Assembly: GCA_964016885.1 (NCBI GenBank)
Contig: CAXHJY010001257.1
Coordinates: forward strand, 163,423 to 227,422
Reading direction: 5' to 3'
Length of the DNA: 64,000 nt
Source: Eledone cirrhosa
Taxonomy: Eukaryota
Shown piece by piece: positions 6,575 to 51,688 of this stretch; the stretch's first letter is position 1, and each line of letters begins with the position of its first letter. Both the position numbers and the translations under genes were made by a program. Under the pieces are notes generated by a model, which searched no databases, had not been told where the DNA came from, and worked only from the letters and a program-made list of their open reading frames with translations.

Positions 6575-6790
6575 AAAAGGTAAACAGAAATAACAACACT
6601 CAGTACAGTATATGGAAGGTATATATTAAGTTAACGCTTGACATAGCAGGAAGAGGGTCTTAACGTTTCGGACGCTAGTCTTTCATCAGAAGAAAGAATG
6701 AGAAATAAAATAGATTGAAGGGACGGGTGGGGTGGAATTGGAAAAAATGTCTTTAGATAAAAATAACAGGTCCATTCATGTTGACATAAT
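6575..6790 (-). mobile_element. Probable Penelope-like element terminal fragment; inverted paralog of 46228-46452
   Basis: Reverse complement aligns to 46228-46452; contains a CTGATGA...GAAACGTT hammerhead core and ends in (TA)n. Confidence 0.6.
6658..6693 (-). ncRNA. Minimal type-I hammerhead ribozyme motif
   Basis: Minus strand TCTT-CTGATGA-AAGACTAGCGTCC-GAAAC-GTT-AAGA: stem I TCTT/AAGA, stem II GAC/GTC, palindromic ACGT stem III. Confidence 0.6.
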
Positions 6791-6910
6791 CATCATCGTT
6801 TAATGTCCATCTTGCACGCTAGCATGGGTTAAACGGTTTTGTTCCATTTGATGTGGGATTGGTCGGGAGACCGTGTCTATATATGTATATATATATATAT
6901 GTGTGTGTGT

Positions 6911-7472
6911 CATCATCATCATCATCATCATTTTACGTCCGCTTTTCCCTGCTTGCAAGGGTGGGACGGGTCTTATTCAGCACAGCATCTCTCCACTCGT
7001 CACGGTCCTTCGTCATCTCCACCGTGAGCTTCAATGATCTGAGGTCTGTTCTCACCACCTCTGCCCATGTTTTTCGTGGTCTACCTCTACCACGTCTTCC
7101 TTCAACTGGCATTTCCTGGTACTTCTTCACCCATAGGTCATCCTCCATGCGCATCACATGTCCATACCACCGCAGTCTCCTCTCCCGTACACTACATTCT
7201 ATCCCTCTCAGACACAGTTTCTCTCTCAACACATTTATGCTGGGTCGTTCACGCACATTGACATTGCACATCCAATGGAGCATGCTTGCCTTATTTCTCT
7301 CCAGCCGTCGCATATCCTCTGCAGTTGCTGCCCATGTCTCACTACCATGCAGCATCGCGCTCCTCACATAGGCATCATATAACCGGCCTTTCGTATGTAG
7401 GGAGAAACCCTTCTTTGTCAACAGAGGAAGCAGCTCCCTAAACTTCTTCCAACCCGTCCTTATTCTAGATAA
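6911..7472 (-). mobile_element. RTE-clade LINE 3' fragment with (GAT)n tail
   Basis: ORF 6933..7481: RIRTGWKKFREL...MLHGSETW...[11 protein letters not shown]...RGRPRKTW. Confidence 0.9.
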
Positions 7473-7489
7473 TATGGCCATTATATACC

Positions 7490-8020
7490 ATTATGTATCA
7501 GCTTACGCACCCCAATCAGGGTTGCCAGACGAACTTAAGGATAGGTTTTACGAGTCCCTAATGCACACTACTGCTCTAACAAACGACAATGACTTCCTAA
7601 TCATCGCAGGAGATTTTAACGGACACGTAGGTAAACACAGTGACTGCTTCTATAGAGTCCATGGAGGCCACGGTTTTGGCCCAAGAAATGAAGAAGGATT
7701 CAGAGTTCTAGAATTCTGCGACGCCAATGACATGTTGATATGTAACACAAACTTCTAGCTGCAAAAGGCTTCTCCCTCAAAATGAAAGGCAGACTGTATG
7801 ATGCGTGTATCCGAACAGCAATGTTACATGGTAGTGAGACCTGGGCGCTGAAGGTGGAAGACTTACGTAGATTAAAGAGAAACGAAGCCTGCATGCTCCG
7901 ATGGATGTGTAATAGTAATATACGCGAACGACAAAGCATAAATGAATTGAGAGAGAGACTGAGCATAAGAGGAATCAAATGCTGTGTGCAGGAGAGGCGG
8001 TTGCGTTGGTATGGACATGT
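7490..8020 (+). mobile_element. Internally deleted RTE LINE fragment (APE piece joined to post-RT piece)
   Basis: VSAYAPQSG...IIAGDFNGHVG...ICNTNF is followed directly by AAKGFSLKMKGRLYDAC...RRLRWYGHV. Confidence 0.85.
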
Positions 8021-8072
8021 AAGTAAAGTATTCTATATATTAGTGGAAGCCATTTCTATATTAAACATTTGT

Positions 8073-8101
<29 letters not shown>

Positions 8102-8104
<3 letters not shown>

Positions 8105-8217
8105 GGAAAAAGTATGACCCCGACGGCAGAGCTCAAGCCGTTTTGATGGCTATTTCAGTCCAGAAATAGCTGTCGGAATGGCTTGAGCTCTGCCGTCGGG
8201 GTCATACTTTTTCCTAT
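8102..8217. repeat. Near-perfect hairpin/palindrome, about 55-bp arms
   Basis: ATAGGAAAAAGTATGACCCCGACGGCAGAGCTCAAGCC... mirrored by ...GGCTTGAGCTCTGCCGTCGGGGTCATACTTTTTCCTAT; one arm recurs near 16495-16530. Confidence 0.9.
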
Positions 8218-8904
8218 TTCCCACTCTACTACCCTAAGTATTGAGTACTCCGGTGCGTTATGGTCCATCTGGTTCCTAACCACAATTCCTTTGTTATATA
8301 TATATACATATATATATACATATATATATATATATAAAAATGAGCGGAACAAGTAAACATTAAACAATCTTTTAAATGAATTAAAATGCTATTTAAATAT
8401 TCACCTGTTCTAATGCTGTTACCCACGGTTTCACTAATCAAAAGATTGGAAATTCAGAGAATTTCCAATGAAAAGAAATAGCTCTCCATGAACCAAAGTA
8501 TCGTCTTCCTGTCTTCCTCCGGTTGCAACGTTTTTTTAAATATTCACTTCTGCGTTCACAGATTGACTTTGTTAGTTTCAGAAGATCCCGTTAAGGGTGA
8601 AAGCAGCGATTCTTTGCTTAAACTTTAATCTTTTATTTTAATAAATATTTGCTCTACGGTTCTTATATATTTGATATATATTTATCCTTATCGAGCCCTC
8701 TTTGGATTCTAGTCTTCACGTTTATTATTATTACTATAGCCTTACGGGGTCGATAAAATAAAGTACCAGTAATGTACTGGGTATTTGCTGGCCTTGTGCC
8801 TAAAGTAGAAACAATTATTATTACTATATATATAACAGCTGAGAGAGATATTTAAGGTGATAGGTAGATATAGGCTGTGAAGCTGTGTTAAAGGTGTGTA
8901 TATT

Positions 8905-9950
8905 AGTATGGTGGTGGTGTGGTGGTGGTGGTGTGGTGCCGACAGTGTGGTGTGGTGGTGCTGACAGTGTTGTTGTTGTGGTACACTGGATATTTCTGTT
9001 TTAAGAACTGGGACACAGGTAAATAGGGTGTTGTGTGTGTGGGGTGTGTTGTGGAGAGGGATGTGTGTGTGTTTGAGGAAAGGTTGTGTGTGTGGGGTGT
9101 GTTGTGTGTAAAGGGACTGTGTGGAGGGGATGTGTGTGTAGAAGGGGTTGTGTGTGTGGAGGGGGCGTGTGTGGAGGGGGTTGTGTGTGTAAAGGGACTG
9201 GGGGATGTGTGTGTGTGGAGGGGGTTGTGTGTGTGTAAAGGGACTGTGGGGGGATGTGTGTGTGTGGAGGGGGTTGTGTGTGTAGGGTGTGCTGTGTGTT
9301 TGAGGAAGGGTTGTGTGTGTGGAGGGGGCTGTGTGTAAAGCGACTGTGGGGTTATGTGTGTGTGGAGGGGGTTGTGTGTGTAAAGGGACTGTGGGGGGGG
9401 GGGGGTTGTGTGTGTGTGGGGGGTGTGTTGTGTGTGGGGTGTGTTGTGTGTGGGGGTGTTGTGTGTGTGGAGGGGGTTGTGTGTAAAGGGACTGTGGGGA
9501 GGGTGTTTGAGGAAAAGTTGTGTGTGGAAGGGGCTGTGTGTAAAGGGACTGTGGGGGGATGTGTGTGTGGAGGGGGTTGTGTGTGTAAAGGGACAGTGTG
9601 GGGGGATGTGTGTGTGTGGAGGGGGTTGTGTGTGTGTGGAGGGGTTGTGTGTGTGTGTGAGGTGTGCTGTGTTTGAGGAAAGGTGTGTGTGTGGAGGGGG
9701 TTGTGCGTGTGGGTCGTGTTGTGTGTGTAAAGGGACTGGGGTGGAGGGTGTGTGTGTGTGAGGTGTTGTGTGTGTAAAGGGACTGTGGGGGGATGTGTGT
9801 GTGGAGGGGTTGTGTGTGTAAAGGGACTGAGGGGGGGGGGGGGGGGCTGTGGGGGTGTGTGTGTGGGGTGAGTTGTATGTGTAAAGGGACTGTGTGTGTG
9901 TGTGTGGAGGTTTTCTGTATGTATGGAGGAGGAGGTATTTGGGGTGGGGA
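8905..9950. repeat. GT/G-rich low-complexity repeat
   Basis: Recurring GTGTGTAAAGGGACTGTGGGGG and GTGGAGGGGGTTGTG motifs. Confidence 0.9.
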
Positions 9951-10744
9951 ATGTCTACAGTCCTAAATATAGGGTGTGGTGTGACATGAAGATGTGAGCT
10001 GTACTTTATGTAAATCTCTCTCTCTATGTGTATATATATAATATGTAGGTTCCCAAGTAGTGTTGGTGGGATAACCTCATTTGAAAGAAGTACTCAATAC
10101 ATTGGTAGAGTATAGGTATCTGTATCATATATAAATGGCTTCTACAGGACTAGAACTGTTTCATTCATATGCAATCATCATATATAAATACAATATCGGA
10201 GAAAGCTTTTTAGCGATACTCCGGCCAAATTCCAACTCACTCAACAAACATTAGGAAATAAGTGATTATATTCCCAATTATGCGTTCGGGGGTGCTAACT
10301 AAAAGTATTGCGTGGAAAATTGGCTGTATTATTTCAAATGAGACATATCTAATATATCTCTTCCCAGACGGACGTCTCGTTTCATTATAGGACTCCTAGA
10401 ATTTGGGTGAAATTATACCAATTTATGTAGGAGCTTGTATACCATCAATAGATATATATTCAAGTGGGCTCCTATAATTCATCAGTGGGTGCCCCAATAA
10501 TACTAATATTGATAATCTAACCAACATCAGTATATATATATATATATATGCATATATACCCGAAATAAATTTAGTTAAATTAAATTAAAGAAGTCATGTC
10601 CAAGACATGCGCCATATCCACCGTAGAATAAGCTCAAAGATTCCAATGAATAGATCCAAGCATTTTATACCAACTAGAAATTGGGAAAAAGTGGACGTAA
10701 AATGAAATGATGAAAATGAAATGATATATAGATATATATATAGA

Positions 10745-11095
10745 TGGAGGCACATGGCTTAGTGGTTAGAGCATTGGCCTTGCAATCGAAAGGTTGTGAG
10801 TTCAATTCTCAGACTGGGTGATGTGTTGTTTCCTTGAGCAAGACACTTTATTTCACATTGCTCCAGTTTACTCAGCTGTAGAAATGAGATGATAGGGACT
10901 GGGGTCCTTATCATTCCATTGTAAAGTGGACGTGTAGGTGCCACGGCAAAAAAGCACCCAGCACTCACTGTAAATGAGGTTGGTGTTAGGAAGGGCATCC
11001 AGCTGTAGAAATCAAGCCAGAATCAGTTCCTGTCCCACCCTTGCAAGCAGGGAAAAAGCGGACGTAAAATGAAATGATGATGATGATGATGATGA
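10745..11095 (+). mobile_element. tRNA-derived CORE-type SINE with RTE-like 3' tail (family A)
   Basis: A box TGGCTTAGTGG, B box GAGTTCAATTC, CORE-like CCTTGAGCAAGACACTT...CAGTTTACTCAGCTGTAGAAATG; tail GTTAGGAAGGGCATCCAGCTGTAGAAA...(GAT)n shared with RTE 3' UTRs in this window. Confidence 0.85.
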
Positions 11096-11119
11096 TATTT
11101 AAAATAAACACATGAAACA

Positions 11120-23837: not shown

Positions 23838-24170
23838 GAAGGAGCATGGCTTAGTGGTTAGAGCATTGGGCTTACAATCGAAAGGTTGTGAGTTCAATTC
23901 TCAGACCGGGTGATGTGTTGTTTCCTTGAGCAAGACACTTTATTTCACATTGCTCCAGTTTACTCAGCTGTAGAAATGAGATGATAGGGACTGGGGTCCC
24001 TATCATTCCACTGTAAAGTGGTCGTGGAGGTGCCACGGCAAAAAAGCACCCAGCACTCACTGTAAATGAGGTTGGTGTTAGGAAGGGCATCCAGCTGTAG
24101 AAATCAAGCCAGAGTCAGTTCCCGTCTCACCCTTGCAAGCAGGGAAAAGCGGACGTAAAATGATGATGAT
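23838..24170 (+). mobile_element. SINE family A, full length
   Basis: Near-identical to 10745-11095. Confidence 0.85.
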
Positions 24171-24219: not shown

Positions 24220-24525
24220 AGGGCAACTTTATTTCACGTTGCTCCAGTTTACTCAGCTGAAAAATGGGTAGCAGCGATAGCTGGGGGTGTAACCCTGCGA
24301 ATGACTGGCATCCTGTCCAGGGGGGAGTCTTGTACTCTCAGTCGCTTCAGGCCATAAAGCCGGGATAAGCACCGGCCAAATAAGCCTTCTTAAGACAGAC
24401 TTTAGACTTATGGCCTGCCTGCCCAGCCAGTGAGATGGCGTCATTGTACGGCTAAAACAGCACGTGTTGTGACCAGTGGCACCGAGTGGGTCCCGACAGA
24501 CTGGTTGGTCAAGGTGGAAGGTGAT
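24220..24525 (+). mobile_element. Headless CORE-like SINE fragment with a different 3' body (duplicated at about 31480-31786)
   Basis: ACTTTATTTCACGTTGCTCCAGTTTACTCAGCTG followed by AACCCTGCGAATGACTGGCATCCTGTCCAGGGGGGAG. Confidence 0.55.
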
Positions 24526-24580
24526 ATATATATGTGTGTGTGTATATATATATATATGTATATATATATGTGTATATATT

Positions 24581-24611
<31 letters not shown>

Positions 24612-25550
24612 ATAATATATGTGTATATATTTGTGTGTATATATATATGTATATATATGTATATATATATGTATATATATGTATATATATAATGTGTATA
24701 TATGTATATATATAATGTGTATATATGTATATATATAATGTGTATATATGTATATATATAATGTGTATATATGTATATATATAATGTGTGTGTGTATATA
24801 TATGTACGTATATATATAATGTGTGTGTGTATATGTACGTATATATATGTGTGTATATATATATATGTATATGTGTGTATATATATATATGTATATATAT
24901 GTATATATATATATATGTATATATATATGTGTGTATATATATGTATATATATATGTGTGTATATATATGTATATATATATGTGTGTATATATATGTATAT
25001 ATATATGTGTGTATATATATGTATATATATATATATGTGTGTATATATATGTATATATATATATATGTGTGTGTATATATATATGTATATATGTGTGTAT
25101 ATATATGTATATATATATATATATGTGTGTATATATATGTATATATATATATATGTGTGTGTATATATATATGTATATATGTGTGTATATATATGTATAT
25201 ATATATATATGTGTGTGTATATATATATGTATATATGTGTGTATATATATGTATATATATAATGTGTGTGTGTATATATATGTACGTATATATATAATGT
25301 GTGTGTGTATATGTACGTATATATATGTGTGTATATATATATATGTATATGTGTGTATATATATATATGTATATATATGTATATATATATATATGTATAT
25401 ATATATGTGTGTATATATATGTATATATATATGTGTGTGTATATATATATGTATATATGTGTGTATATATATGTATATATATATGTGTGTGTATATATAT
25501 ATGTATATATGTGTGTATATATATATATATATATGTGTGTATATATATGT

Positions 25551-25581
<31 letters not shown>

Positions 25582-25670
25582 GTGTGTATATATATGTATA
25601 TATATATAATATATATATATATATGTATATATATGTATATATATATATATATATATAAGCATATATATAT
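24525..25670. repeat. (TA)/(TG) microsatellite (paralog 31786-32750)
   Basis: Direct reading. Confidence 0.95.
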
Positions 25671-26323
25671 AAGCATAAACGAACTAAGGAAAAAATTAGA
25701 GATAAGAGGGATCAGATGTTGTTTACTCGAGAGACGGCTGCGTTGGTATGGACACGTGATGCGCATGAAAGTCGATAGCTGTATTACAAAGTGCAGGGCA
25801 ATAAAGATAGACGGTAGCCACGGAATAGGCAGACCTAGAAAAACATGGGATGAGCTGATAAACTCCGACCTCATACACTTACACCTCTCCAAGACAATGT
25901 CACTGGACCGTGACCTTTGGCGGTACTCAGTAACAGAGAAGACCCGCCTTGCCAGTAGGCATCTCTAACAAACTACACCCCGTCCCGCCACCACCCCCAC
26001 CCCATCCACACCACCCCGTTCCATGTAAAGTTATGTTGGTGCCGCGCCATCCAGGCCGAAACAAACGAGATCGTGTAGGTGTCACGACAAAAAAACACAC
26101 AGTCCACGCTGTAATGTGGCCGTGTAGGCAACACGGTAAAAACCTCCCAGACCCACACTGTAAATGTGGTTGGTGTTAGGAAGGGCATCCAACTGTAGAA
26201 AACCTGCCAGACAGTCCTATGCGAGCAAGACAATCACTCTTGCCTCAAGTGGGACTACCCCCGTCCAAACCCATGCAAGCGTGGAACACGGACGTTAAAC
26301 GTTGATGATGATGATGATGATGA
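25670..26323 (+). mobile_element. RTE LINE 3' fragment
   Basis: [31 protein letters not shown]...GRPRKTW, 3' UTR and (GAT)n. Confidence 0.9.
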
Positions 26324-26747
26324 TATATGTATATATATATATGTATATATATATAATATATGTATGTATATATATATATATACATGTGTATATATACATA
26401 TATATATTTAGTGAACAATAAGAATATATATGAACTGGTTTGGAACTAAATTTATAGTCATGGACAAGATATATATATACACTCTGTGTATATATATATA
26501 TATGTATATATATACGTGTATATATATGTGTATAAGTATACTGTGTGTTTTATAGACATTGTGGGGGTTTTTTTGTGTGTATACATATATATACACACAA
26601 AAAAAAACTATATATATATACACATATATATATATATATACATACACATATATATCTATACATACACATATATATATATATATATATATACATACACACA
26701 TATATATATATATATATATACATACACATATATATATATATATATAT

Positions 26748-26785
<38 letters not shown>

Positions 26786-26787
<2 letters not shown>

Positions 26788-27192
26788 TGGCTGCCAACTC
26801 GTTTTCGAGTACGGCCACTACTTTATATCCATGTAGGAGAACCCCTACCGATGCGCTGAACGAGTGTGACTTTCTAGTCCAGCCAGCGACTTGAAAACTC
26901 TGGTACAAACACTACACTTGTGACAATTATTGACACATAGTGCTGGGCCCATGGTACCATGTGACGACAAGTGCAGAGAGATCTCCAGATACAAAGCAAT
27001 GCCTGTGCCATGAAGCTTTTATAATGAGCAAAGGCACTGCACAAAGCCAGTCCCACTCTCTTAACCAAGATGATATTTATCAAAAGATGACCCCTTAGCC
27101 TTTGTCAGGGCAGAATTCTAGAAGGAAAATTCTGATATAACACCTGCAACCCTGATGGTATCCAATGATGTTGACTTGTTCTTCTTTTTGGT

Positions 27193-27195
<3 letters not shown>
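26786..27195 (-). mobile_element. Degraded 3' end of a second, RTE-like LINE with a terminal C2H2 finger (duplicated at 33389-33797)
   Basis: Minus strand encodes [23 protein letters not shown]-stop, then a short UTR and (TA)n. Confidence 0.6.
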
Positions 27196-27246
<51 letters not shown>

Positions 27247-27556
27247 AAACCACTCGAAAATATATAAACTAAAATCATTACATTACATACACACACAAAC
27301 AATAAAACCACAGCAACACACAACACAGTGTGTTGTGTGTGTATATATATATGCACACAGTGTGTGTGTATATATACATATATATATACACACTGTGTGT
27401 GTATATATATATGTGTATATATATATATATATACACAACACACTGTGTGTGTGTGTTGTGTGTTGCTGTGGTTTTATTGTTTGTGTGTGTATGTAGTGTA
27501 ATGATTTTAGTTTATATATGTTCGAGTGGTTTTGTGTGTGTGTGTATATATATATA

Positions 27557-27799
27557 TCATCATCATCGTTTAACGTCCATGTTCCACGCTTGCATGGGTT
27601 TGGACGGGAGTTTTCCCACTTGAGGCAAGAGTGGTTGTCTTGCTCGCATAGGACTGTCTGGCGGGTTTTCTACAGCTGGATGCCCTTCCTAACACCAACC
27701 ACATTTACAGTGTGGGACTGGGAGGTTTTTACCGTGTTGCCTACACGGCCACATTACAGCGTGGACTGTCTGGCGGGTTTTCTACAGCTGGATGCCCTT

Positions 27800-27801
<2 letters not shown>
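27557..27801 (-). mobile_element. RTE 3' UTR fragment (paralog 34123-34477)
   Basis: Reverse complement of 41200-41457. Confidence 0.85.
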
Positions 27802-31432: not shown

Positions 31433-32605
31433 TATATATAAATAGTTGTAAAAAGCTGTCAGGTTATATCCGTAGTTGGTAGGGCAACTTTATTTCACGT
31501 TGCTCCAGTTTACTCAGCTGAAAAATGGGTAGCAGCGATAGCTGGGGGTGTAACCCTGCGAATGACTGGCATCCTGTCCAGGGGGGAGTCTTGTACTCTC
31601 AGTCGCTTCAGGCCATAAAGCCGGGATAAGCACCGGCCAAATAAGCCTTCTTAAGACAGACTTTAGACTTATGGCCTGCCTGCCCAGCCAGTGAGATGGC
31701 GTCATTGTACGGCTAAAACAGCACGTGTTGTGACCAGTGGCACCGAGTGGGTCCCGACAGACTGGTTGGTCAAGGTGGAAGGTGATATATATATGTGTGT
31801 GTGTATGTATATATATATGTATATATATATGTGTATATATTTGTGTATATATATATATATATGTATATATATAATATATGTGTATATATTTGTGTGTATA
31901 TATATATATGTATATATTTGTGTGTATATATATATGTATATATTTGTGTGTATATATATATGTATATATATAATGTGTATATATGTATATATATAATGTG
32001 TATATATGTATATATATAATGTGTGTGTGTATATATATGTACGTATATATATAATGTGTGTGTGTATATGTACGTATATATATATGTGTGTATATATATA
32101 TATATGTATATATATGTATATATATATATGTATATATATGTATATATATATATGTATATATATGTATATATATATATATGTGTATATATATGTATATATA
32201 TATGTGTATATATATGTATATATATATGTGTGTATATATATGTATATATATGTGTGTATATATATGTATATATATATGTGTGTATATATATGTATATATA
32301 TATGTGTGTATATATATGTATATATATATATATATGTGTGTGTATATATATATGTATATATGTGTGTATATATATGTATATATATATATGTGTGTATATA
32401 TATATATGTATATATATGTGTATATATGTACATATATGTGTGTATATATATGTATATATATATATGTGTATATATATGTGTATATATATATGTATATATG
32501 TGTGTATATATATTTATATATATATAATGTGTGTATATATATTTATATATAATGTGTGTATATATATTTATATATAATGTGTGTATATATATGTATATAT
32601 ATATA

Positions 32606-32675
<70 letters not shown>

Positions 32676-33260
32676 GTATATATATATAATATATATATGT
32701 ATATATATATATGTATATATATATAATATATGTATGTATATATATATATATATTGTTATATTTGGGGAGGGTCATATTTGCGTAATATTGCCAGGGTTGG
32801 TTTTCGCTTCTCGCTGTCTTTTATATATATATATCTGCGATCTAACTTACTCGGTCAAAAATAATACAGATACAATATAGACAAACACATATATATAGTT
32901 TACATAAATCTTTCGTTGCACATCTGCAACATCGTCAGTGGTGTTATATTCATTGTTATATATATATACATACATGTGTATATATACATATTTATATTTA
33001 GTGAACAATAAGAATATATATGAACTGGTTTGGAACTAAATTTATAGTCATGGACAAGATATATATATACACTCTGTGTATATATATATATATGTATATA
33101 TATATGTGTATATATATGTGTATAAGTATACTGTGTGTTTTATAGACATTGTGGGTTTTTTTTTGTGTGTATACATATATATACACACAAAAAAAAACTA
33201 TATATATATACACATATATATATATATATATACATACACATATATATCTATACATACACA

Positions 33261-33302
<42 letters not shown>

Positions 33303-33329
33303 CATACACATATATATATATATATATAT

Positions 33330-33391
<62 letters not shown>

Positions 33392-33797
33392 TGGCTGCCA
33401 ACTCGTTTTCGAGTACGGCCACTACTTTATATCCATGTAGGAGAACCCCTACTGATGCGCTGAACGAGTGACTTTCTAGTCCAGCCAGCGACTTGAAAAC
33501 TCTGGTACAAACACTACACTTGTGACAATTATTGACACATAGTGCTGGGCCCATGGTACCATGTGACGACAAGTGCAGAGAGATCTCCAGATACAAAGCA
33601 ATGCCTGTGCCATGAAGCTTTTATAATGAGCAAAGGCACTGCACAAAGCCAGTCCCACTCTCTTAACCAAGATGATATTTATCAAAAGATGACCCCTTAG
33701 CCTTTGTCAGGGCAGAATTCTAGAAGGAAAATTCTGATATAACACCTGCAACCCTGATGGTATCCAATGATGTTGACTTGTTCTTCTTTTTGGTAAA

Positions 33798-33834
<37 letters not shown>

Positions 33835-34475
33835 AAACCACTCGAAAATATATAAACTAAAATCATTACACTACATACACACACAAACAATAAAACCACA
33901 GCAACACACAACACACATACACAGTGTGTTGTGTGTGTATATATACATATATATATACACACTGTGTGTGTATATATATATGTGTATATATATATATATA
34001 CACAACACACTGTGTGTGTGTGTTGTGTGTTGCTGTGGTTTTATTGTTTGTGTGTGTATGTAGTGTAATGATTTTAGTTTATATATGTTCGAGTGGTTTT
34101 GTGTGTGTGTGTATATATATATATCATCATCATCGTTTAACGTCCATGTTCCACGCTTGCATGGGTTTGACGGGAGTTTTCCCACTTGAGGCAAGAGTGG
34201 TTGTCTTGCTCGCATAGGACTGTCTGGCGGGTTTTCTACAGTTGGATGCCCTCCTAACACCAACCACATTTACAGTGTGGGGCTGGAGGTTTTTACCGTG
34301 TTGCCTACACGGCCACATTACAGCGTGGACTGTCTGGCGGGTTTTCTACAGCTGGATGCCCTTCCTAACACCAACCACATTTACAGTGTGGGACTGGGAG
34401 GTTTTTACCGTGTTGCCTACACGGCCACATTACAGCGTGGACTCTCTGGCTGGTTTTCTACGGCTGGATGCCCTT

Positions 34476-34594
<119 letters not shown>

Positions 34595-35784: not shown

Positions 35785-35787
35785 GTA

Positions 35788-37365: not shown

Positions 37366-38244
37366 GGCGACAGCATGCTATATTCTTCTGACCTGTCTAA
37401 AAGGGGGCGTAACTCTGATTTAGAACGTCCAACCCATATATATATATATATGTGTGTGTGTGTATGTGTATATATAGATATGTGTGTGTTGGTGAAGGGG
37501 GTGGTGTGTTGATGATGGTGTGGTGGTGGTGTTGGTGAAGGGGGTGATGTGTTGATGATGGTGTGGTGGTGGTGTTGGTGAAGGGGGTGATGTGTTGATG
37601 ATGTTTTTTGGTGAAGGTGGTGGTGGTGGGGTGTTGGTGAAGGTGGTGGTGTGTTGGTGGTGGTGTTGGTGGTGAAGGTGGTGGTGAAGAGGGTGTGGTG
37701 GTGGTGTTTATATGATGGTGTATAATCTTTTTATACACAATGTTTATTATTGATTTGTAAAGTAGACATTTACTCTACCCCGCCCTGCCCCCCCCGTCTC
37801 ACTTCCCCTTTTATATATATATGTATATATATGTGTGTGTGTGTGTATACATATGTGTTTATGTGTGTGTATGTGTGTGTTTCTGTATCTATATTTATGT
37901 GTGTGTGTATATGTGTGTGTGTATATGTTTGTGTGTGTGTATATATATGTGTGTGTATGTGTATATGTGTGTGTATATATACATATATTTAAAAAAGTAA
38001 ACAGAGAACAAAAAACAGAAAACAAAGAGGCAGTACAAATGTTTATTATATATATATATATACACACATATATATATATACACACACACATCCATCATCA
38101 TCGTCTACTGTCCATTTTTACTGTGAGCAAGGAAAGCCATTTCTATTTCAAGGTCTGTTTACTCAAGAGTTATTAGTATGAATGGTTTACACAGTAAATA
38201 TTATAATTACTTGATCTTCTACTTGTCTGTCAAGTCTCAACAGG

Positions 38245-39312
38245 AACCTTAGACAGACAGTACTCCCTGGTTTTATATATACAGGACCCAACAGGGACCT
38301 TAGACAGACAGTACTCCCTGGTTTTATATATGCAGGGCCCAACAGGGACCTTAGACAGACAGTACTCCTTGGCTTTATATATACAGGACCCAACAGGGAC
38401 CTTAGACAGTACTCCTTGGCTTTATATATGCAGGGCCGAACAGAGACCTTAGACAGACGGTACTCCCTGGTTTTATATATACAGGACCCAACAGAGACCT
38501 TAGACAGACAGTACTCCCTGGTTTTATATATGCAGGACCCAACAGGGACCTTAGACAGACAGTACTCCCTGGTTTTATATATGCAGGACCCAACAGGGAC
38601 CTTAGACAGACAGTACTCCCTGGCTTTATATATGCAGGACCCAACAGGGACCTTAGACAGACAGTACTCCCTGGTTTTATATATACAGGACCCAACAGGG
38701 ACCTTAGACAGACAGTACTCCATGGCCTTATATATACAGGACCCAACAGAGACCTTAGACAGACAGTACTCCCTGGTTTTATATATGCAGGACCCAACAG
38801 GGACCTTAGACAGACAGTACTCCCTGGTTTTATATATGCAGGACCCAACAGGGACCTTAGACAGACAGTACTCCCTGGTTTTATATATGCAGGACCCAAC
38901 AGGGACCTTAGACAGACAGTACTCCCTGGCTTTATATATGCAGGACCCAACAGGGACCTTAGACAGACAGTACTCCCTGGTTTTATATATGCAGGACCCA
39001 ACAGGGACCTTAGACAGACAATACTCCCTGGGTTTATATATACAGGACCCAACAGAGACCTTAGACAGACAGTACTCCCTGGATTTATATATACAGGACC
39101 CAACAGGGACCTTAGACAGACAGTACTCCCTGGTTTTATATATACAGGACCCAACAGGGACCTTAGACAGACAATACTCCCTGGTTTTATATATACAGGG
39201 CCCAACAGAGACCTTAGACAGACAATACTCCCTGGTTTTATATATGCAGGACCCAACAGGGACCTTAGACTGACAGTACTCCCTGGTTTTATATATGCAG
39301 GACTCAACAGGG
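38245..39312 (+). repeat. 51-bp minisatellite, about 21 copies
   Basis: Unit CCTTAGACAGACAGTACTCCCTGGTTTTATATATGCAGGACCCAACAGGGA. Confidence 0.95.
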
Positions 39313-42119: not shown

Positions 42120-42256
42120 ATTATTTATGCAAAGTAATCCAACTTATTTTAATAATGAGATAAAAAAATATAAAGGGGCCACAGTGTCGTGGCTCACCAA
42201 TCATTATATATAAGGTTATTACTAATATACATTTTTCTCTCTTTCTCTGTCTACAG

Positions 42257-42376: not shown

Positions 42377-42414
42377 GTAAGTATAGATATACCTACACAT
42401 ATATATACATATAT

Positions 42415-42458
<44 letters not shown>

Positions 42459-42495
42459 AAATTACACAATTATCAAAGTTATGTTCAAATCATTT

Positions 42496-42547
42496 AATAG
42501 CTGACAATCGTTTCTTCCAAACTCTCATTTGGAGTCATCAGAGCATT
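42496..42547 (-). ncRNA. Minimal type-I hammerhead ribozyme motif
   Basis: Minus strand AATGCT-CTGATGA-C-TCCAAA-TGAGAG-TTTGGA-A-GAAAC-GATT-GTC-AGCTATT. Confidence 0.7.
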
Positions 42548-42771
42548 ATCAATGTTTGTACATGTAATTAACCTCCTATTCAACTGAACAATCATATAGA
42601 TACATATAAATTGATGTTGTGAGCAACAGTTTCGTATTTACAGGGTGGAATGGATGCGACATATTTTACGAGAATTATACAATAATACAAATTAAAAGCA
42701 CAGAGTGGAATATATGCAACAGATAATACAAGAGAATTGTCTAATAATTAAAGAGGCATTGAGAAAGAAGC

Positions 42772-44570
42772 TCAACACATCACATGTCCATACCATCTCA
42801 GTCTTCTCTCCCACACACTACAACTTATCCCTCTTATACACAGTTTCTCTCTCACCACTTCACATGTCCATACGATCTCAGTCTTCTTTCCCACACACCA
42901 CAACTTATCCTCTTAGACCCAGTTTCTCAACACATCACATGTCCATACCATCTCAGTCTTCTCTCCTACACACTACAGTTTATCCCTCTTATACACAGTT
43001 TCTCTCTCAACACATCACATGTCCATACCATCTCAGTCTTCTCTCCCACACACTACAACTTATCCCTCTTATACACAGTTTCTCTCTCAACACATCACAT
43101 GTCCATACCATCTCAGTCTTCTCTCCCACACACCATAACTTATCCCTCTCATACACAGTTTCTCTCTCAACACACCACATGTCCATACCATCTCAGTCTT
43201 CTCTCCTACACACTACAGTTTATCCCTCTTATACACAGTTTCTCTCTCAACACATCACATGTCCATACCATCTCAGTCTTCTCTCCCACACACTACAACT
43301 TATCCCTCTTATACACAGTTTCTCTCTCACCACATCACATGTCCATACCATCTCAGTCTTCTCTCCCACACACTACAGTTTATCCCTCATATACACAGTT
43401 TCTCTCTCAACACATCACATGTCCATACCATCTCAGTCTTCTCTCCCACACACCACAACTTATCCCTCTTAGACCCAGTATCTCAACACATCACATGTCC
43501 ATACCATCTCGGTCTTCTCTCACACACACTACAACTTATCCCTCTTATACACAGTTTCTCTCTCAACACATCACATGTCCATACCATCTCAGTCTTCTCT
43601 CCCACACACTACAACTTATCCTTCTTATACACAGTTTCTCTCTCAACACATCACATGTCCATACCATCTCAGTCTTCTCTCCCACACACCACAACTTATC
43701 CCTCTTATACACAGTTTCTCTCTCAACACATCACATGTCCATACCATCTCAGTCTTCTCTCCCACACACTACAACTTATCCTTCTTATACACAGTTTCTC
43801 TCTCAATACATCACATGTCCATACCATCTCAGTCTTCTCTCCCACACACCACAACTTATCCCTCTTATACACAGTTTCTCTCTCAACACATCACATGTCC
43901 ATACCATCTCAGTCTTCTCTCCCACACACTACAACTTATCCCTCTTATACACAGTTTCTCTCTCAACACATCACATGTCCATACCATCTGTCTTCTCTCC
44001 CACACACTACAACTTATCCCTCTTAGACCCAGTTTCTCTCTCAACACATCACATCTCCATACCATCTCAGTCTTCTCTCCCACAAACCACAACTTATCCC
44101 TCTTATACCCAGTTTCTCTCTCAACACATCACTTGTCCATACCATCTCGATCTTCTCTCCCACACACCACAACTTATCCCTCTTATATACAGTTTCTCTC
44201 CCACACACTACAACTTATCCTTCTTATACACAGTTTCTCTCTCAACACATCACATGTCCATACCATCTCAGTCTTCTCTCCCACACACCACAACTTATCC
44301 CTCTTATACACAGTTTCTCTCTCAACACATCACATGTCCATACCATCTCAGTCTTCTCTCCCACACACCACAACTTATCCCTCTTATACACAGTTTCTCT
44401 CTCAACATACCACATATCCATACCATCTCAGTCTTTTCTCCCACACACTACAACTTATCCCTCTTATACCCAGTTTCTCTCTCAACACATCACATGTTCA
44501 TACCATCTCACTCTTCTCTCCCACACATGACAACTTATCCCTCTTATATACAGTTTCTCTCACAACTCAT
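42772..44570 (-). repeat. 80-bp satellite derived from RTE coding sequence, about 22 copies
   Basis: The unit's reverse complement encodes [27 protein letters not shown]; the array runs into single-copy RTE sequence 44570-44697, homologous to 7230-7360. Confidence 0.92.
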
Positions 44571-44729
44571 ATATGCTTGGTCATTCACGCACATTGACAT
44601 TACACATCTAATGGAGCATGTTTCCCACATTTCTCTCCAGCCGTCACATATCCTCTGCAGTTGCTGCCCATGTCTCACTACCATGCAGCATCGCGCATCT
44701 ACATACACACAAACATACACACATACCTG

Positions 44730-45440: not shown

Positions 45441-45713
45441 ACAATCTTTATGTACCACCATGTGTCTTTTTAGTCAAGAGCTAGTTCTACACCCTTTGTT
45501 GTATATCACACACATTGTTTCACCAAGTCTTTGTTGAGTGGTGTTGCAGGTGGTTATACATACATACAGAGTGTACTGGGTGTATTTTATCATGACACCA
45601 GCACTACCATTCTCTCTCTCACTCTTTCTCTCTCACTCTTTCTCTCTCTGTCTCTCTCATTCTCTCTCTCTCTCTAACCAATGTCCATTTGTCTTCCCCT
45701 TCTTCTATTTCAG

Positions 45714-45805
45714 TATTCGGTGTATTAACAGCTGATTTCCTTAGTGGTCTAGTTCACTGGTCAGCAGACACCTGGGGTAGTGTGGATCTACCTGTCATAG
45801 GGAAA
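45714..45805 (+). CDS. PEDS1: PEDS1/TMEM189 coding exon
   Basis: TTTCAG acceptor, GTAAGT donor, 92 bp, phase 1/0. (I)[30 protein letters not shown]. Confidence 0.96.
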
Positions 45806-45944
45806 GTAAGTAGTCACTTTTAATATTAACTCACTCCCCCAGCCAACAACAACAACAACAACAACAGACCCTTTCCAGAAACTTCAGTCAACTCTCTTTC
45901 AAATCTTTAAACATAATCTTCCAGGAGAGAAACCATATCTCTGG

Positions 45945-46020
<76 letters not shown>

Positions 46021-46027
<7 letters not shown>

Positions 46028-46150
46028 ATATAGAAAAGGCTTCTACAGGACTAGAACTGTTTCATTTGGAAGAAATCATCAGGGCTTCCTGATGATTTCT
46101 CCCGAATTAAACAGTTCTAGTCCTGTAGAAGCCTTTTCTATATCAAATAT
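46021..46150. repeat. Palindrome after a (TA)n tract, each arm with a degenerate hammerhead core
   Basis: ATATTTGATATAGAAAAGGCTTCTACAGGACTAGAACTGTTT...TCATCAGG mirrored by CCTGATGA...AAACAGTTCTAGTCCTGTAGAAGCCTTTTCTATATCAAATAT; related piece at about 10050-10180. Confidence 0.85.
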
Positions 46151-46330
46151 TTATACTCTGCTATGTTTTGAATACCTTACTGTGGTTACCCCCGATTGAA
46201 CCTGGGATAAACGTATATATATATATTTTGCAAGAGATGACAACATGAATGGACCTGTTATTTTTATCTAAAGACATTTTTTCCAATTCCACCCCACCCG
46301 TCCCCTCAATCTATCTTATTTCTCACTCTT

Positions 46331-46366
46331 TCTTCTGATGAAGGACCAGCGTCCGAAACGTTAAGA
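46331..46366 (+). ncRNA. Minimal type-I hammerhead ribozyme motif within a Penelope-like fragment (46228-46452)
   Basis: TCTT-CTGATGA-A-GGAC-CAGC-GTCC-GAAAC-GTT-AAGA. Confidence 0.72.
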
Positions 46367-46456
46367 CCCTCTTCCTGCTATATCAAGTGTTAAACTAATA
46401 TATCCCTTCCATATACTGTACTGATTGTGTTGTTATTTCTGTTTTCCTTTTATATG

Positions 46457-46490
<34 letters not shown>

Positions 46491-46580
46491 TGTATACATA
46501 TATATATATATATATATATGCATACATACATATATATATATATATATATGTATGCATACATACATATATATATATATATG

Positions 46581-46611
<31 letters not shown>

Positions 46612-46644
46612 GTATGCATACATACATATATATATATATATATG

Positions 46645-46686
<42 letters not shown>

Positions 46687-46712
46687 CATACATACATATA
46701 TATATATATATG

Positions 46713-46752
<40 letters not shown>

Positions 46753-46778
46753 CATACATACATATATATATATATATG

Positions 46779-46819
<41 letters not shown>

Positions 46820-47000
46820 ATATATATAAATATATAAAAATTTTTGCTCTACATGGCTGAATACAATAAATGTAATCTGAGTTTTTCGAATATTAATAAT
46901 AACATTCGATTAGTTTGCAATTATACAAACAAGCCTCATTTTTAAAGCCATGTCAGTAGAATGAACCCTTCATTCTTACTCTTGTGTTGGCATGTGAACA

Positions 47001-47050
47001 GAACTGCAGACACTAATGTTTCTGGGCATCACCCTTCATCAGTACAGCTC
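47001..47050 (-). ncRNA. Type-I hammerhead ribozyme motif
   Basis: Minus strand GAGCTGTA-CTGATGA-A-GGGT-GAT-GCCC-A-GAAAC-ATTAGT-GTC-TGCAGTTC: 8-bp stem I (two G-U pairs), GUC triplet. Confidence 0.78.
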
Positions 47051-47315
47051 ACTGTTACTAATATGCAAATCAGGCCGATCAGTCACTGTGTATTTTAGAA
47101 AATAGCATATATTTAAACTAGCTCTAACAGTTGGCAGGTGAACAGTGAGCAGTACCTGCAGTTGCGACCGGTAGATAGCAATTGGAAAGACTAACGGAAA
47201 CATTGTTTCCTTGGTCCGATTTGACTGGCATATCCGTAAGACAGCCACAGAAATCTGAAAATGTAAGCAAATTGAAATACTGCTGGGAAAACATTAAAAT
47301 TATATGGAAGCCTAA

Positions 47316-47476
47316 ATCATCATCATCATCATCAGTTTTACATCCATTCTTCCACGCTAGCATGGGTTAGATGAGTTGTCCTGTTCTGGGCAATGCTAGG
47401 TCAGGTGACCATCTCTTGCTCATAGAGAACTGATTTTGGCTTGGTTTCTACAGCGGGATGTCCTTCCTAACACCAA
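47316..47476 (-). mobile_element. RTE/SINE-A type 3' tail leading into the 48-bp array
   Basis: (CAT)n...CCACGCTAGCATGGG...TTTCTACAGCGGGATGTCCTTCCTAACACCAAC. Confidence 0.8.
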
Positions 47477-50400
47477 CCACTTTACAGTGTGGACTGGGTA
47501 CTTTTTGTTGTGACACCTACATGACCACTTTACAGTGTGGACTGGGTACTTTTTGTTGTGACACCTACATGACCACTTTACAGTGTGGACTGGGTACTTT
47601 TTGTTGTGACACCTACATGACCACTTTACAGTGTGGACTGGGTACTTTTTGTTGTGACACCTACATGACCACTTTACAGCGTGGACTGGGTACTTTTTGT
47701 TGTGAGACCTACATGACCACTTTACAGTGTGGACTGGGTACTTTTTGTTGTGACACCTACATGACCACTTTACAGTGTGGACTGGGTACTTTTTGTTGTG
47801 ACACCTACATGACCACTTTACAGTGTGGACTGGGTACTATTTATTGTGACACCTACATGGCCACTTTACAGTGTGGACTGGGTACTTTTTGTTGTGACAC
47901 CTACATGACCACTTTACAGTGTGGACTGGGTGCTGTTTGTTGTGACACCTACATGACCACTTTACAGTGTGGACTGGGTACTTTTTGTTGTGACACCTAC
48001 ATGACCACTTTACAGTGTGGACTGGGTACTTTTTGTTGTGACACCTACATGACCACTTTACAGTGTGGACTGGGTACTTTTTGTTGTGACACCTACATGA
48101 CCACTTTACAGTGTGGACTGGGTACTTTTTGTTGTGACACCTACATGACCACTTTACAGTGTGGACTGGGTACTTTTTGTTGTGACACCTACATGACCAC
48201 TTTACAGTGTGGACTGGGTACTATTTATTGTGACACCTACATGGCCACTTTACAGTGTGGACTGGGTACTTTTTGTTGTGACACCTACATGACCACTTTA
48301 CAGTGTGGACTGGGTGCTGTTTGTTGTGACACCTACATGACCACTTTACAGTGTGGACTGGGTACTTTTTGTTGTGACACCTACATGACCACTTTACAGT
48401 GTGGACTGGGTACTTTTTGTTGTGACACCTACATGACCACTTTACAGTGTGGACTGGGTACTTTTTGTTGTGACACCTACATGACCACTTTACAGTGTGG
48501 ACTGGGTACTATTTATTGTGACACCTACATGACCACTTTACAGTGTGGACTGGGTACTATTTATTGTGACACCTACATGGCCACTTTACAGTGTGGACTG
48601 GGTACTTTTTGTTGTGACACCTACATGACCACTTTACAGTGTGGACTGGGTGCTGTTTGTTGTGACACCTACATGACCACTTTACAGTGTGGACTGGGTA
48701 CTTTTTGTTGTGACACCTACATGACCACTTTACAGTGTGGACTGGGTACTTTTTGTTGTGACACCTACATGACCACTTTACAGTGTGGACTGGGTACTTT
48801 TTGTTGTGACACCTACATGACCACTTTACAGCGTGGACTGGGTACTTTTTGTTGTGACACCTACATGACCACTTTACAGTGTGGACTGGGTACTTTTTGT
48901 TGTGACACCTACATGACCACTTTACAGTGTGGACTGGGTACTTTTTGTTGTGACACCTACATGACCACTTTACAGTGTGGACTGGGTACTATTTATTGTG
49001 ACACCTACATGGCCACTTTACAGTGTGGACTGGGTACTTTTTGTTGTGACACCTACATGACCACTTTACAGCGTGGACTGAGTACTTTTTGTTGTGACAC
49101 CTACATGACCACTTTACAGTGTGGACTGGGTACTTTTTGTTGTGACACCTACATGACCACTTTACAGTGTGGACTGGGTACTTTTTGTTGTGACACCTAC
49201 ATGACCACTTTACAGCGTGGACTGAGTACTTTTTGTTGTGACACCTACATGACCACTTTACAGTGTGGACTGGGTACTTTTTGTTGTGACACCTACATGA
49301 CCACTTTACAGCGTGGACTGGGTACTTTTTGTTGTGACACCTACATGACCACTTTACAGTGTGGACTGGGTACTATTTGTTGTGACACCTACATGACCAC
49401 TTTACAGTGTGGACTGGGTACTATTTATTGTGACACCTACATGGCCACTTTACAGTGTGGACTGGGTACTTTTTGTTGTGACACCTACATGACCACTTTA
49501 CAGTGTGGACTGGGTGCTGTTTGTTGTGACACCTACATGGCCACTTTACAGTGTGGACTGGGTACTTTTTGTTGTGACACCTACTTGACCACTTTACAGT
49601 GTGGACTGGGTACTTTTTGTTGTGACACCTACATGACCACTTTACAGTGTGGACTGGGTACTTTTTGTTGTGACACCTACATGACCACTTTACAGTGTGG
49701 ACTGGGTGCTGTTTGTTGTGACACCTACATGGCCACTTTACAGTGTGGACTGGGTACTTTTTGTTGTGACACCTACATGACCACTTTACAGTGTGGACTG
49801 GGTACTTTTTGTTGTGACACCTACATGACCACTTTACAGCGTGGACTGGGTACTATTTGTTGTGACACCTACATGACCACTTTACAGTGTGGACTGGGTA
49901 CTTTTTGTTGTGACACCTACATGACCACTTTACAGTGTGGACTGGGTACTTTTTGTTGTGACACCTACATGACCACTTTACAGTGTGGACTGGGTACTTT
50001 TTGTTGTGACACCTACATGACCACTTTACAGTGTGGACTGGGTACTTTTTGTTGTGACACCTACATGACCACTTTACAGTGTGGACTGGGTACTTTTTGT
50101 TGTGACACCTACATGACCACTTTACAGCGTGGACTGGGTACTTTTTGTTGTGACACCTACATGACCACTTTACAGTGTGGACTGGGTACTTTTTGTTGTG
50201 ACACCTACATGACCACTTTACAGTGTGGACTGGGTGCTTTTTGTTGTGACACCTACATGACCACTTTACAGTGTGGACTGGGTACTATTTATTGTGACAC
50301 TTACATGACCACTTTACAGTGTGGACTGGGCACTATTTGTCATGACACCTACAGGACCACTTTACAGTGTGGACTGGGTACTATTTGTTGTGACACCTAC

Positions 50401-50735
50401 ATGACCACTTTACAGTGTGGACTGGGTACTATTTATTGTGACACTTACATGACCACTTTACAGTGTGGACTGGGCACTATTTGTCATGACACCTACATGA
50501 CCACTTTACAGTGTGGACTGGGTACTATTTGTTGTGACACCTACATGACCACTTTACAGTGTGGACTGGGTACTATTTATTGTGACACATGACCACTTTA
50601 CAGTGTGGACTGGGCACTATTTGTCATGACACCTACATGACTACTTTACAGTGTGGACTGGGTACTATTTGTTGTGACACCTACATGACCACTTTACAGT
50701 GTGGACTGGGTACTATTTGTTGTGACACCTACATG
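47476..50735 (-). repeat. 48-bp satellite, about 68 copies
   Basis: Unit ACCACTTTACAGTGTGGACTGGGTACTTTTTGTTGTGACACCTACATG. Confidence 0.97.
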
Positions 50736-51627
50736 AAGGAAGCCAATACTCATATATGTATCTGTGACTATGTTTATATATATGTCCTCTATGAATTTGT
50801 TCTATACTCCCTTACGGTTGAGTAAACCTCAGGCAGTAACTAGCTGCTTCTTCTAGTAATGAACTTACTTGCTACCGGCCTACCCTTCACAACACTTCTA
50901 TCTTTGACCGCTGGCCCTGTGATGATTTTCACCCCTTTTGAATTTGTTACTAACGGCAATCACTTTGGATATTTCGGTCCTAACTGAGGGAGTCTCTTGA
51001 AAAGCTCGGAGCCTCATGGATAATGTAATGATTAGACATTTCCACAAAGTACGAGCGAAACTATCGATAGTCGGGACTAGAGGAATTTTGGTAAAGTTTA
51101 TATACATTTTTTCTTCAAACTTACATTTTAGACATAGCTCCGTTTAATTGATTATTTGTCTCGTTAATTTCTACGGACTAAGAAGAAGGACTGGGTAAAT
51201 TTTGTCTGACTGTTCCTCGCGGGGAAAGTCTGTGACATTTATCTGTTATTTCTTCAAAGTTACATTTTAAACTTAGCTCCATTTAAATGATCATTTATCT
51301 GGTTGATTTCTACGAACTAAGAAGAAAAAGATTGGATATATTTTGTCTGACTGTTCTTGAAACTTATAATTCTATATATAGCTCTGATTAATAATTATTT
51401 ACTTAATTAATTCACTTATTGAGCCACACCTTTTTAAAACTGTTATACTCTGCTATGTATTGAGTACCTTACTTACTGTGGTTACCTCCGATTCAACCCG
51501 GAATAACTTACCTATATATATATATGTGTAAATGAAGTAATTCCATCGGAAAGGTCCAGGAAAAAAAGAGTGCTCTATGTAGGTTACAGAGCTTATTAGT
51601 TATGTAATAAACAACATAAGATAATTA

Positions 51628-51688
51628 TTTCATTTACCAGTGGTTTCTTGAAAGCAAACAAAATTTGCTTTCAGTCATCAGAATGAAA
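51628..51688 (-). ncRNA. Type-I hammerhead ribozyme motif
   Basis: Minus strand TTTCATT-CTGATGA-C-TGAAAGCAAA-TTTTG-TTTGCTTTCA-A-GAAAC-CACTG-GTA-AATGAAA: 7-bp stem I, 10-bp stem II, GUA triplet. Confidence 0.8.

What the first reader, a model, noticed from the sequence alone, without database searches (positions are those of the whole stretch)
6658..51688. At least eight sequence-diverse minimal hammerhead ribozyme motifs scattered through the locus
Seen: type-I cores (stem I, CUGAUGA, stem II, GAAA, short palindromic stem III, NUH, stem I') at 6658(-), 12303(+), 12380(+), 23401(+), 42496(-), 46331(+), 47001(-) and 51628(-), with partial ones at 32911(-) and 46045-46115. Apart from the 6658/46331 pair the stems differ in sequence yet all pair, which argues against chance. 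Several have an unpaired position at the base of stem II (U-U, C-A, C-A, A-A). Established: Penelope-like elements and retrozymes carry minimal hammerheads that cleave as dimers through palindromic stem III. Inference: relics of several PLE or non-autonomous ribozyme-retroelement families; no PLE ORF is visible in the window.
Basis: partly seen in the sequence, partly recalled or inferred. Interest (0 to 1): 0.78.

Follow-up and report, generated by a model that had tools for sequence, protein, structure and literature searches.

The report
Penelope retroelement hammerheads, genome-wide flood
These are real hammerhead-ribozyme motifs in the tail ends of nine families of Penelope-like jumping genes and their likely short non-coding derivatives, a known pairing; the one surprise is an estimated quarter-million such motifs in this genome, whose self-cutting is predicted but untested.

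Summary
A type-I hammerhead descriptor finds 7 motifs in the window against 0.03-0.07 in shuffles. The 6658 copy and both 'partial' sites are also members of hammerhead families. The ten sites fall into nine dispersed repeat families. Four families run upstream, in other copies, into Penelope-like (PLE) RT and/or GIY-YIG coding sequence, and a fifth probably does; one copy is a complete element with two hammerhead-bearing pLTRs. Three families occur as 306-635-bp tandem units (retrozyme-like) with no ORF link found. One is a short palindrome. Stem III is self-complementary across families and the stems covary, which fits dimer cleavage as published for PLE hammerheads. The window is not special: 59 evenly spaced 10-kb samples give 51 motifs (0.5 in shuffles), about 86 per Mb or 260,000 per genome (165,000-358,000). 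That is twice the largest count I found in print (axolotl, 126,247), at about 19 times its density, though with a different descriptor. The window copies are single, truncated relics. Cleavage and expression were not testable. Verdict: new members of a known kind, notable for abundance.

The parts
6551..6787 (-). Family A: 5'-truncated 3' end (pLTR) of a PLE; minimal hammerhead 6658-6693 (C3 6689, predicted cut after 6662), stem II weakened
   Evidence: family linked to RT + GIY-YIG coding sequence
12208..12368 (+). Family E: PLE 3' end with a short fold-back at its 5' side; hammerhead 12303-12366 (C3 12310, cut after 12359); tail cut off where family D begins
   Evidence: L187 and L290 align for 2218 nt at 81% from GIY-YIG to the hammerhead
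12369..12696 (+). Family D: part of one unit of a tandem retrozyme-like repeat (unit 433-635 bp, with an internal TA run); hammerhead 12379-12421 (C3 12385, cut after 12415)
23339..23539 (+). Family F: part of a ~310-bp non-coding unit; hammerhead 23401-23442 (C3 23405, cut after 23438)
   Evidence: (one tandem pair, 306 bp)
32750..32957 (-). Family I: PLE 3' end; hammerhead 32903-32940 (CUGACGA core, 6-bp stem II, stem I only 2 bp)
   Evidence: RT/GIY-YIG coding sequence directly upstream in 10 of 20 loci
42457..42772 (-). Family G: PLE 3' end; hammerhead 42500-42544 (C3 42541, cut after 42503); most family copies have C at core position 4, this copy has U
   Evidence: GIY-YIG 1.07-1.32 kb upstream in 5 of 20 loci
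46016..46226 (+). Family B: head-to-head palindrome (46016-46155) plus tail; + arm hammerhead 46082-46133 with G12U at 46108 (predicted dead); the - arm lacks stem I
   Evidence: G is read at 46108 in about 95% of the summed depth of run X21
46226..46455 (+). Family A second copy; minimal hammerhead 46331-46366 (C3 46335, cut after 46362); sense strand of a host intron
46850..47155 (-). Family C: part of a 430-441-bp tandem retrozyme-like unit with an inverted 5' piece (47058-47155); hammerhead 47001-47050 (C3 47042, cut after 47009)
51530..51771 (-). Family H: probable PLE 3' end with fold-back arm (51727-51771); hammerhead 51628-51688 (C3 51681, cut after 51635)
   Evidence: GIY-YIG upstream in L137 and L207, but across microsatellites
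45714..45805 (+). Exon of the host gene (Lipid_desat PF10520; PEDS1/TMEM189-like is my recalled label)
52458..52676 (+). Next host exon; families B, A(46335), C and H lie in the intron before it
60029..60289 (+). Last coding exon of the host gene

Best explanation
The motifs are type-I hammerhead folds in the 3' terminal repeats of Penelope-like retroelements and of short non-coding repeats likely mobilised by them, and they are predicted to cut multi-copy element transcripts as dimers. Shown: each motif sits near the 3' end of a dispersed repeat, 8 of the 10 window copies end in or next to a TA/CA run, families A, I, G and E join upstream to RT and/or GIY-YIG coding sequence, and C, D and F occur as tandem units. 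Inferred from the literature: a tandem or read-through transcript carries two hammerheads; their self-complementary stem III strands pair with each other; both cut after NUH and release a unit-length RNA, possibly circularised; PLE RT and endonuclease copy it into a nicked microsatellite from the 3' end. Early termination leaves only the hammerhead-bearing tail, and fold-back or a second priming gives the head-to-head copies. The ten window copies are such single, truncated insertions, likely silent and decaying almost neutrally.
For: Excess over shuffles. Seven families gave 1,851-3,797 first-look candidates each and family I gave 79, with top copies mostly 85-99% identical. L200: two 430-bp direct repeats 3,829 bp apart, each with the family A hammerhead, around RT-, CxxC- and GIY-YIG-like coding sequence with a DKG motif. 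PLE protein hits in 13 of 40 family A loci. ESM Atlas neighbours of two ORFs score 0.92-0.97 and include HTH_animal, GIY-YIG and RVT_1 clusters. With no stem III filter, 34 of 36 inner stem III positions are self-complementary across 12 distinct types. Among 12 related but distinct motifs, 12 of 16 pairs change on both sides, 0 of 500 shuffles reach that, and slid controls give 0-4. Tandem spacing: C 430-441 bp, D 433-635 bp, F 306 bp. Published parallels: PMC4209133, PMC7229834, PMC3846280, PMC8557442, bioRxiv 10.64898/2026.07.22.740005.
Against: No cleavage or RNA-end data. Unconstrained cofolding gave intermolecular stem III for only 1 of 8 motifs, and self-duplex energies are small (-1.7 to -8.8 kcal/mol). 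Within families the core varies nearly as much as the 3' flank (92/3047 vs 440/10991, p=0.012; one core column of family I was mis-indexed). Pfam gave no RT or GIY-YIG hit on three family A ORF fragments; NCBIfam gave only a weak RT hit (E=6.5e-4) on 1 of 3. None of the 30 loci from the family E search showed the ORF link; it came from other loci. H is linked only across microsatellites. No ORF link was found for B, C, D or F. The rows of the alignment were picked from descriptor hits, so the inner stem I and first stem II pairs are partly selected. Published in vitro activity is low, and 8 of 9 Xenopus dimers did not cut.
Confidence: 0.88

Rival explanations
1. The motifs are chance matches in AT-rich repetitive DNA.
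For: The core is short, Rfam does not call them, and the minimum-energy folds mostly differ from the hammerhead fold.
Against: 7 vs 0.03-0.07 in the window; 51 vs 0.47 in the genome sample; palindromic stem III and covariation not demanded by the descriptor; position in PLE pLTRs.
Confidence: 0.01
2. The hammerhead fold is kept as a structural or protein-binding signal (RT recognition, pausing, fold-back) rather than for cleavage.
For: Family G is abundant although 17 of 20 loci have C at core position 4. Fold-back points cluster just upstream of the core (H -39/-44 in 14 of 20, E about -81 in 10 of 30, B at the core in 19 of 20), not at the cut site. In B the palindrome (-98 kcal/mol) would bury the ribozyme. 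PMC4209133 leaves non-cleavage roles open.
Against: All 11 catalytic-core positions are the majority letter in 7 of 8 families and the core is invariant across 12 divergent types, including the NUH site; related PLE hammerheads cut in vitro.
Confidence: 0.12
3. Some window copies were co-opted to process or regulate the host desaturase-like pre-mRNA.
For: The family A copy at 46335 is intact and on the sense strand of an intron.
Against: It is a lone copy with a 4-nt stem III and no sense-strand partner of its family nearby; 96-97% identical copies are scattered genome-wide; local density equals the genome average.
Confidence: 0.04
4. Families B, C, D and F are not PLE-derived but move by another route (MITE-like DNA transposition for B; another retroelement for C, D, F).
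For: No ORF link found for them; B looks like a 140-bp inverted repeat.
Against: Same hammerhead type, head-to-head inverted copies, and an optional one-sided tail in B as described for PLEs; vertebrate retrozymes trace to pLTRs.
Confidence: 0.2

Closest known systems
[quoted passage not shown]
   Same: Type-I topology, palindromic or absent stem III, extra base after A9, many sequence families per genome, mostly single motifs from truncated PLEs, opposite-strand pairs 100-700 bp apart, a U3-A8 core variant.
   Different: Their counts are about 2,000-9,000 per genome; here about 260,000 is extrapolated. The E-like superfamily keeps an unpaired C at stem II position 4 in 12 of 12 types, which I did not see in the parts read.
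EN+ PLEs with a zinc-finger-like linker (Neptune and Nematis clades; Craig et al. 2021, PMC8557442; passages)
   Same: C-terminal GIY-YIG after RT, CxxC-type linker, pLTRs, tandem/inverted insertions, microsatellite targets.
   Different: Clade not tested by a tree; assigning A and I to Neptune-like and G, E, H to Nematis-like rests on linker motifs and recall.
Non-LTR retrozymes (Cervera and de la Pena 2020, PMC7229834, passages; Li et al. 2026 bioRxiv 10.64898/2026.07.22.740005, parts 1-3 of 5)
   Same: Non-coding tandem units of a few hundred bp with one type-I hammerhead per unit (C, D, F), coexisting with PLEs.
   Different: Only short arrays and many inverted copies seen here; D holds an internal TA run; C and D carry a fixed octamer motif; circular RNA not tested.
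Palindromic PLE junctions in Adineta vaga (Arkhipova et al. 2013, PMC3846280; passages)
   Same: Head-to-head inverted pLTRs with a palindrome at the junction and an optional one-sided tail.
   Different: Here short palindromic forms (B, H, E) are themselves abundant, with recurring junction positions; in B the hairpin loop is the 5' strand of hammerhead stem I.

Membership tests
Type-I hammerhead ribozyme | Core CUGANGA, GAAA, UH in type-I order | tested here: met
   9 of 10 window sites; the family B window copy has G12U
Type-I hammerhead ribozyme | Stems I-III supported by covariation | tested here: met
   12 of 16 pairs, 0/500 shuffles; E-like types only, rows partly selected; 34/36 stem III positions
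Type-I hammerhead ribozyme | Match to an Rfam hammerhead model | tested here: not met
   none at gathering score; best row E=3
Type-I hammerhead ribozyme | Site-specific self-cleavage | not testable with these tools
   needs an in vitro assay or RNA-end data
EN+ Penelope-like element (A, I, G, E, H) | RT followed by C-terminal GIY-YIG, upstream of the hammerhead | tested here: met
   A and I: RT and GIY-YIG motifs; G, E: GIY-YIG region contiguous with the 3' end; H weaker
EN+ Penelope-like element (A, I, G, E, H) | Direct pLTRs flanking the ORF, each with a hammerhead | tested here: met
   shown for family A only, in L200
EN+ Penelope-like element (A, I, G, E, H) | 5' truncation, inverted copies, microsatellite-adjacent 3' end | tested here: met
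EN+ Penelope-like element (A, I, G, E, H) | RT groups with PLE RTs in a phylogeny; clade identity | not tested
   no named PLE reference proteins were returned by any search
Non-LTR retrozyme (C, D, F) | Non-coding tandem units with a type-I hammerhead in consecutive units | tested here: met
   C 4 distinct loci, D at least 9, F 1
Non-LTR retrozyme (C, D, F) | Expressed as unit-length linear and circular RNA | not testable with these tools
   no RNA holder listed
Non-LTR retrozyme (C, D, F) | Homology to the pLTR of an autonomous PLE | tested here: inconclusive
   no ORF link among 20 loci per family plus longer fetches; only top-scoring copies seen

The most novel reading that the evidence does not exclude
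This genome carries the largest and densest hammerhead load yet described, about a quarter of a million canonical-core motifs (one per 12 kb) plus some 40,000 U3-A8 variants. With related families sharing compatible palindromic stem III sequences, long pre-mRNAs would often hold two sense-strand motifs able to dimerise and cut, making transposon ribozymes a routine force on host intron processing. The record count alone I put at about 0.6; the effect on host transcripts is the unlikely part.
Probability: 0.12. Interest if true: 0.75.

Novelty: new member of a known kind. Interest (0 to 1): 0.4.

Why it matters
The biology is known, so the window by itself is ordinary. What it adds: (1) an extrapolated 165,000-358,000 hammerheads, against 126,247 for axolotl (28 Gb) and 235 Rfam Hammerhead_1 hits in a squid annotation, which suggests Rfam-based annotation misses most of them; (2) many coexisting families, autonomous and non-autonomous, offering a natural set for the open question of what PLE hammerheads do; (3) testable details: a conserved stem II mismatch, an abundant U4C family, octamer motifs in retrozyme units, and fold-back points tied to the ribozyme.

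Tried and rejected
Rfam E-value scan of the whole window: the 150 rows shown of 654 were microsatellite-driven noise, mostly miRNA models. The repeat finder was swamped by microsatellites. RNA: no RNA holder listed; laying contigs of four runs showed families A and B in two runs of unrecorded kind, 0 contigs in X1 and 1 short piece in X2; contigs cannot show ends, so this was not used for expression. PDB searches and one homolog search gave nothing. A motif hunt for upstream host exons found none, so I cannot say whether the sites before 45714 are intronic. My first descriptor capped stem III at 14 nt and missed family B (43 hits); it was widened (51 hits). Fold-back arm lengths are capped by the script and not used; junction counts are biased because queries included the window's own junction. 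L111 and L114 ORFs downstream of G copies belong to another PLE and were not counted as links; the 'D' hit in L296 was an E-type motif. Lunse et al. 2017 could not be read; it is cited only through review passages (PMC6765202). A newt satellite-2 promoter paper was not found. Two look-ups of earlier scan findings returned nothing. No supplements were read; those of PMC4209133 and PMC8557442 may list cephalopod motifs or counts.
Full report
Observation. A type-I descriptor found 7 motifs in the window against means of 0.07 and 0.03 in two sets of 300 shuffles. The eighth named site (6689) is a diverged copy of the 46335 motif with one stem II pair lost. The 'partial' site at 32938 passes a relaxed descriptor with a 2-bp stem I. 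The 46045-46115 site is a palindrome whose + arm is a full hammerhead with a 4-bp stem III and 8-nt loop, spoiled in this copy by G12U; 15 of 19 other copies are intact. Rfam calls none of them.

Setting. The window is the last 64 kb of a 227-kb contig in a 3.0-Gb assembly, rich in TA/CA microsatellites and minisatellites. That it is an octopus-like cephalopod is my inference from recalled genome traits; no call names it. Three exons of a Lipid_desat (PF10520) gene lie on the + strand, and four of the elements sit in the intron 45806-52457. No PLE coding sequence lies in the window.

Families. Each motif's flank is a dispersed repeat. First-look candidates: A 3,110, B 3,270, C 3,797, D and E together 3,595, E 1,851, F 1,981, G 2,796, H 2,744, I 79; only 40 were scored per search, and these are not copy numbers. 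Family A copies share a 3' end at TA/CA runs and vary at the 5' end; 13 of 40 loci hit PLE protein pieces. L200 holds two 430-bp direct repeats 3,829 bp apart, each with the hammerhead, around broken RT, CxxC and GIY-YIG-like coding sequence. Family I has RT/GIY-YIG sequence directly upstream in 10 of 20 loci, and G has GIY-YIG 1.07-1.32 kb upstream in 5 of 20. For E, none of its own 30 loci showed a link, but L187 and L290 align over 2,218 nt at 81% from GIY-YIG to the hammerhead. H has GIY-YIG upstream in L137 and L207, across microsatellites. Atlas neighbours of the A and I ORFs include HTH_animal, GIY-YIG and RVT_1 clusters; Pfam and NCBIfam did not recognise the fragments beyond one weak RT hit. 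C, D and F show tandem units of 430-441, 433-635 and 306 bp and no ORF link. B shows no ORF link either.

Structure. With no stem III filter, 42 sample hits fall into 12 stem III types with 34 of 36 inner positions self-complementary. Twelve related motifs of different sequence keep the core invariant; 12 of 16 pairs change on both sides, none of 500 shuffles reaches that, and stem II position 4 is an unpaired C in 12 of 12. Those rows were chosen from descriptor hits, so part of the pairing is selected; the outer stem II and inner stem III pairs are not. Against function of the single copies: core positions vary at 3.0% versus 4.0% in flanks, the hammerhead is the minimum-energy monomer fold for 1 of 8 motifs, and cofolding gives the stem III dimer for 1 of 8.

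Abundance. Of 60 evenly spaced 10-kb stretches requested, 59 were returned (589.8 kb, chromosome-scale contigs only). The first descriptor gave 43 hits in 25 stretches versus 1.0 in 12 shuffles. The widened one gave 51 in 27 stretches versus 0.47 in 15 shuffles: 86 per Mb, about 257,000 per genome, bootstrap 165,000-358,000. U3-A8 variants add about 42,000 (6,000-88,000; 10 hits vs 1.7). Both arms of an inverted pair count separately. The window (7) is within expectation: mean 4.7, P(>=7)=0.24. Published counts I saw: about 2,000 minimal motifs in Schistosoma, 4,000 in coelacanth, 9,000 in Xenopus, about 5,000 in a mussel and 126,247 in axolotl (28.21 Gb, so about 4.5 per Mb), and 235 Rfam hits in giant squid. 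Descriptors differ, so the comparison is rough. Four searches pairing hammerhead or ribozyme with octopus or cephalopod, or seeking the highest count, listed no cephalopod hammerhead survey; the library lacks most subscription papers, and I read no supplements.

Mechanism. Shown: position near element 3' ends, ORF links, tandem and head-to-head copies, palindromic stem III. Inferred from PMC4209133 (parts 1-2 read), PMC7229834, PMC6765202 and PMC3846280 (passages): two motifs in one transcript pair through stem III, cut after NUH, and free a unit-length and possibly circular RNA that PLE RT and endonuclease insert at microsatellites; truncation leaves the hammerhead tails seen here. Unexplained: fold-back points recur upstream of the core rather than at the cut site, and family G is abundant with C at position 4.

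Verdict. Real, well explained, and a known kind; interest rests on the abundance and on a few testable structural details.

Noticed in passing
window 3-5042 (+): Apparently intact LINE: ORF1-like frame 3-1583 and a 1152-aa ORF with endonuclease, RVT_1 and zf-RVT domains.
   Followed up: partly
family G, L101-L120; window 42541: 17 of 20 loci have C at core position 4; the window copy has the canonical U, probably through CpG decay.
   Followed up: partly
families C and D, e.g. L188, L192: An octamer motif lies at -88 from C3 in 41 of 66 D copies seen and within 300 nt in 33 of 47 C copies (overlapping loci included; background 0.024 per 300 nt). It recalls the snRNA-type promoter of newt satellite 2 (recalled; paper not found).
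   Followed up: partly
E-like types, alignment A1: Invariant unpaired C three pairs up stem II in 12 of 12 types, with covarying pairs on both sides; a possible tertiary contact.
   Followed up: partly
L206, L227, L231, L243, L250, L254: A U3-A8 core family with a 6-nt palindromic stem III: 9 of the 15 U3-A8 hits in 590 kb; none in the window.
   Followed up: partly
window 46016-46155: In family B the loop of the palindrome is the 5' strand of stem I, so one arm is a whole ribozyme and the other lacks stem I.
   Followed up: partly
window 12368/12369 and 46226: Different families abut directly (E then D; B then A), as expected for elements sharing microsatellite targets.
   Followed up: no
window 10753-10816 and 23847-23904 (+): Two tRNA-like matches just over the Rfam threshold, likely heads of tRNA-derived SINEs.
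   Followed up: no
window 5280-6221 and 54912-59921; 15076-16160 and 47476-50736; 23539-23649 and 38238-39312: Three minisatellites (72, 48 and 51 bp units) each occur at two separate places in the window.
   Followed up: no
window about 24250-27800 and 31500-34500: A segment of several kb appears duplicated (near-identical frames).
   Followed up: no
L122 and L124 (family H): A 45-bp tandem array fills the fold-back junction between two H arms.
   Followed up: no
run X2, window 46330-46362: One contig from a differently coded organism matches only the 33-nt family A hammerhead, with unrelated flanks.
   Followed up: no
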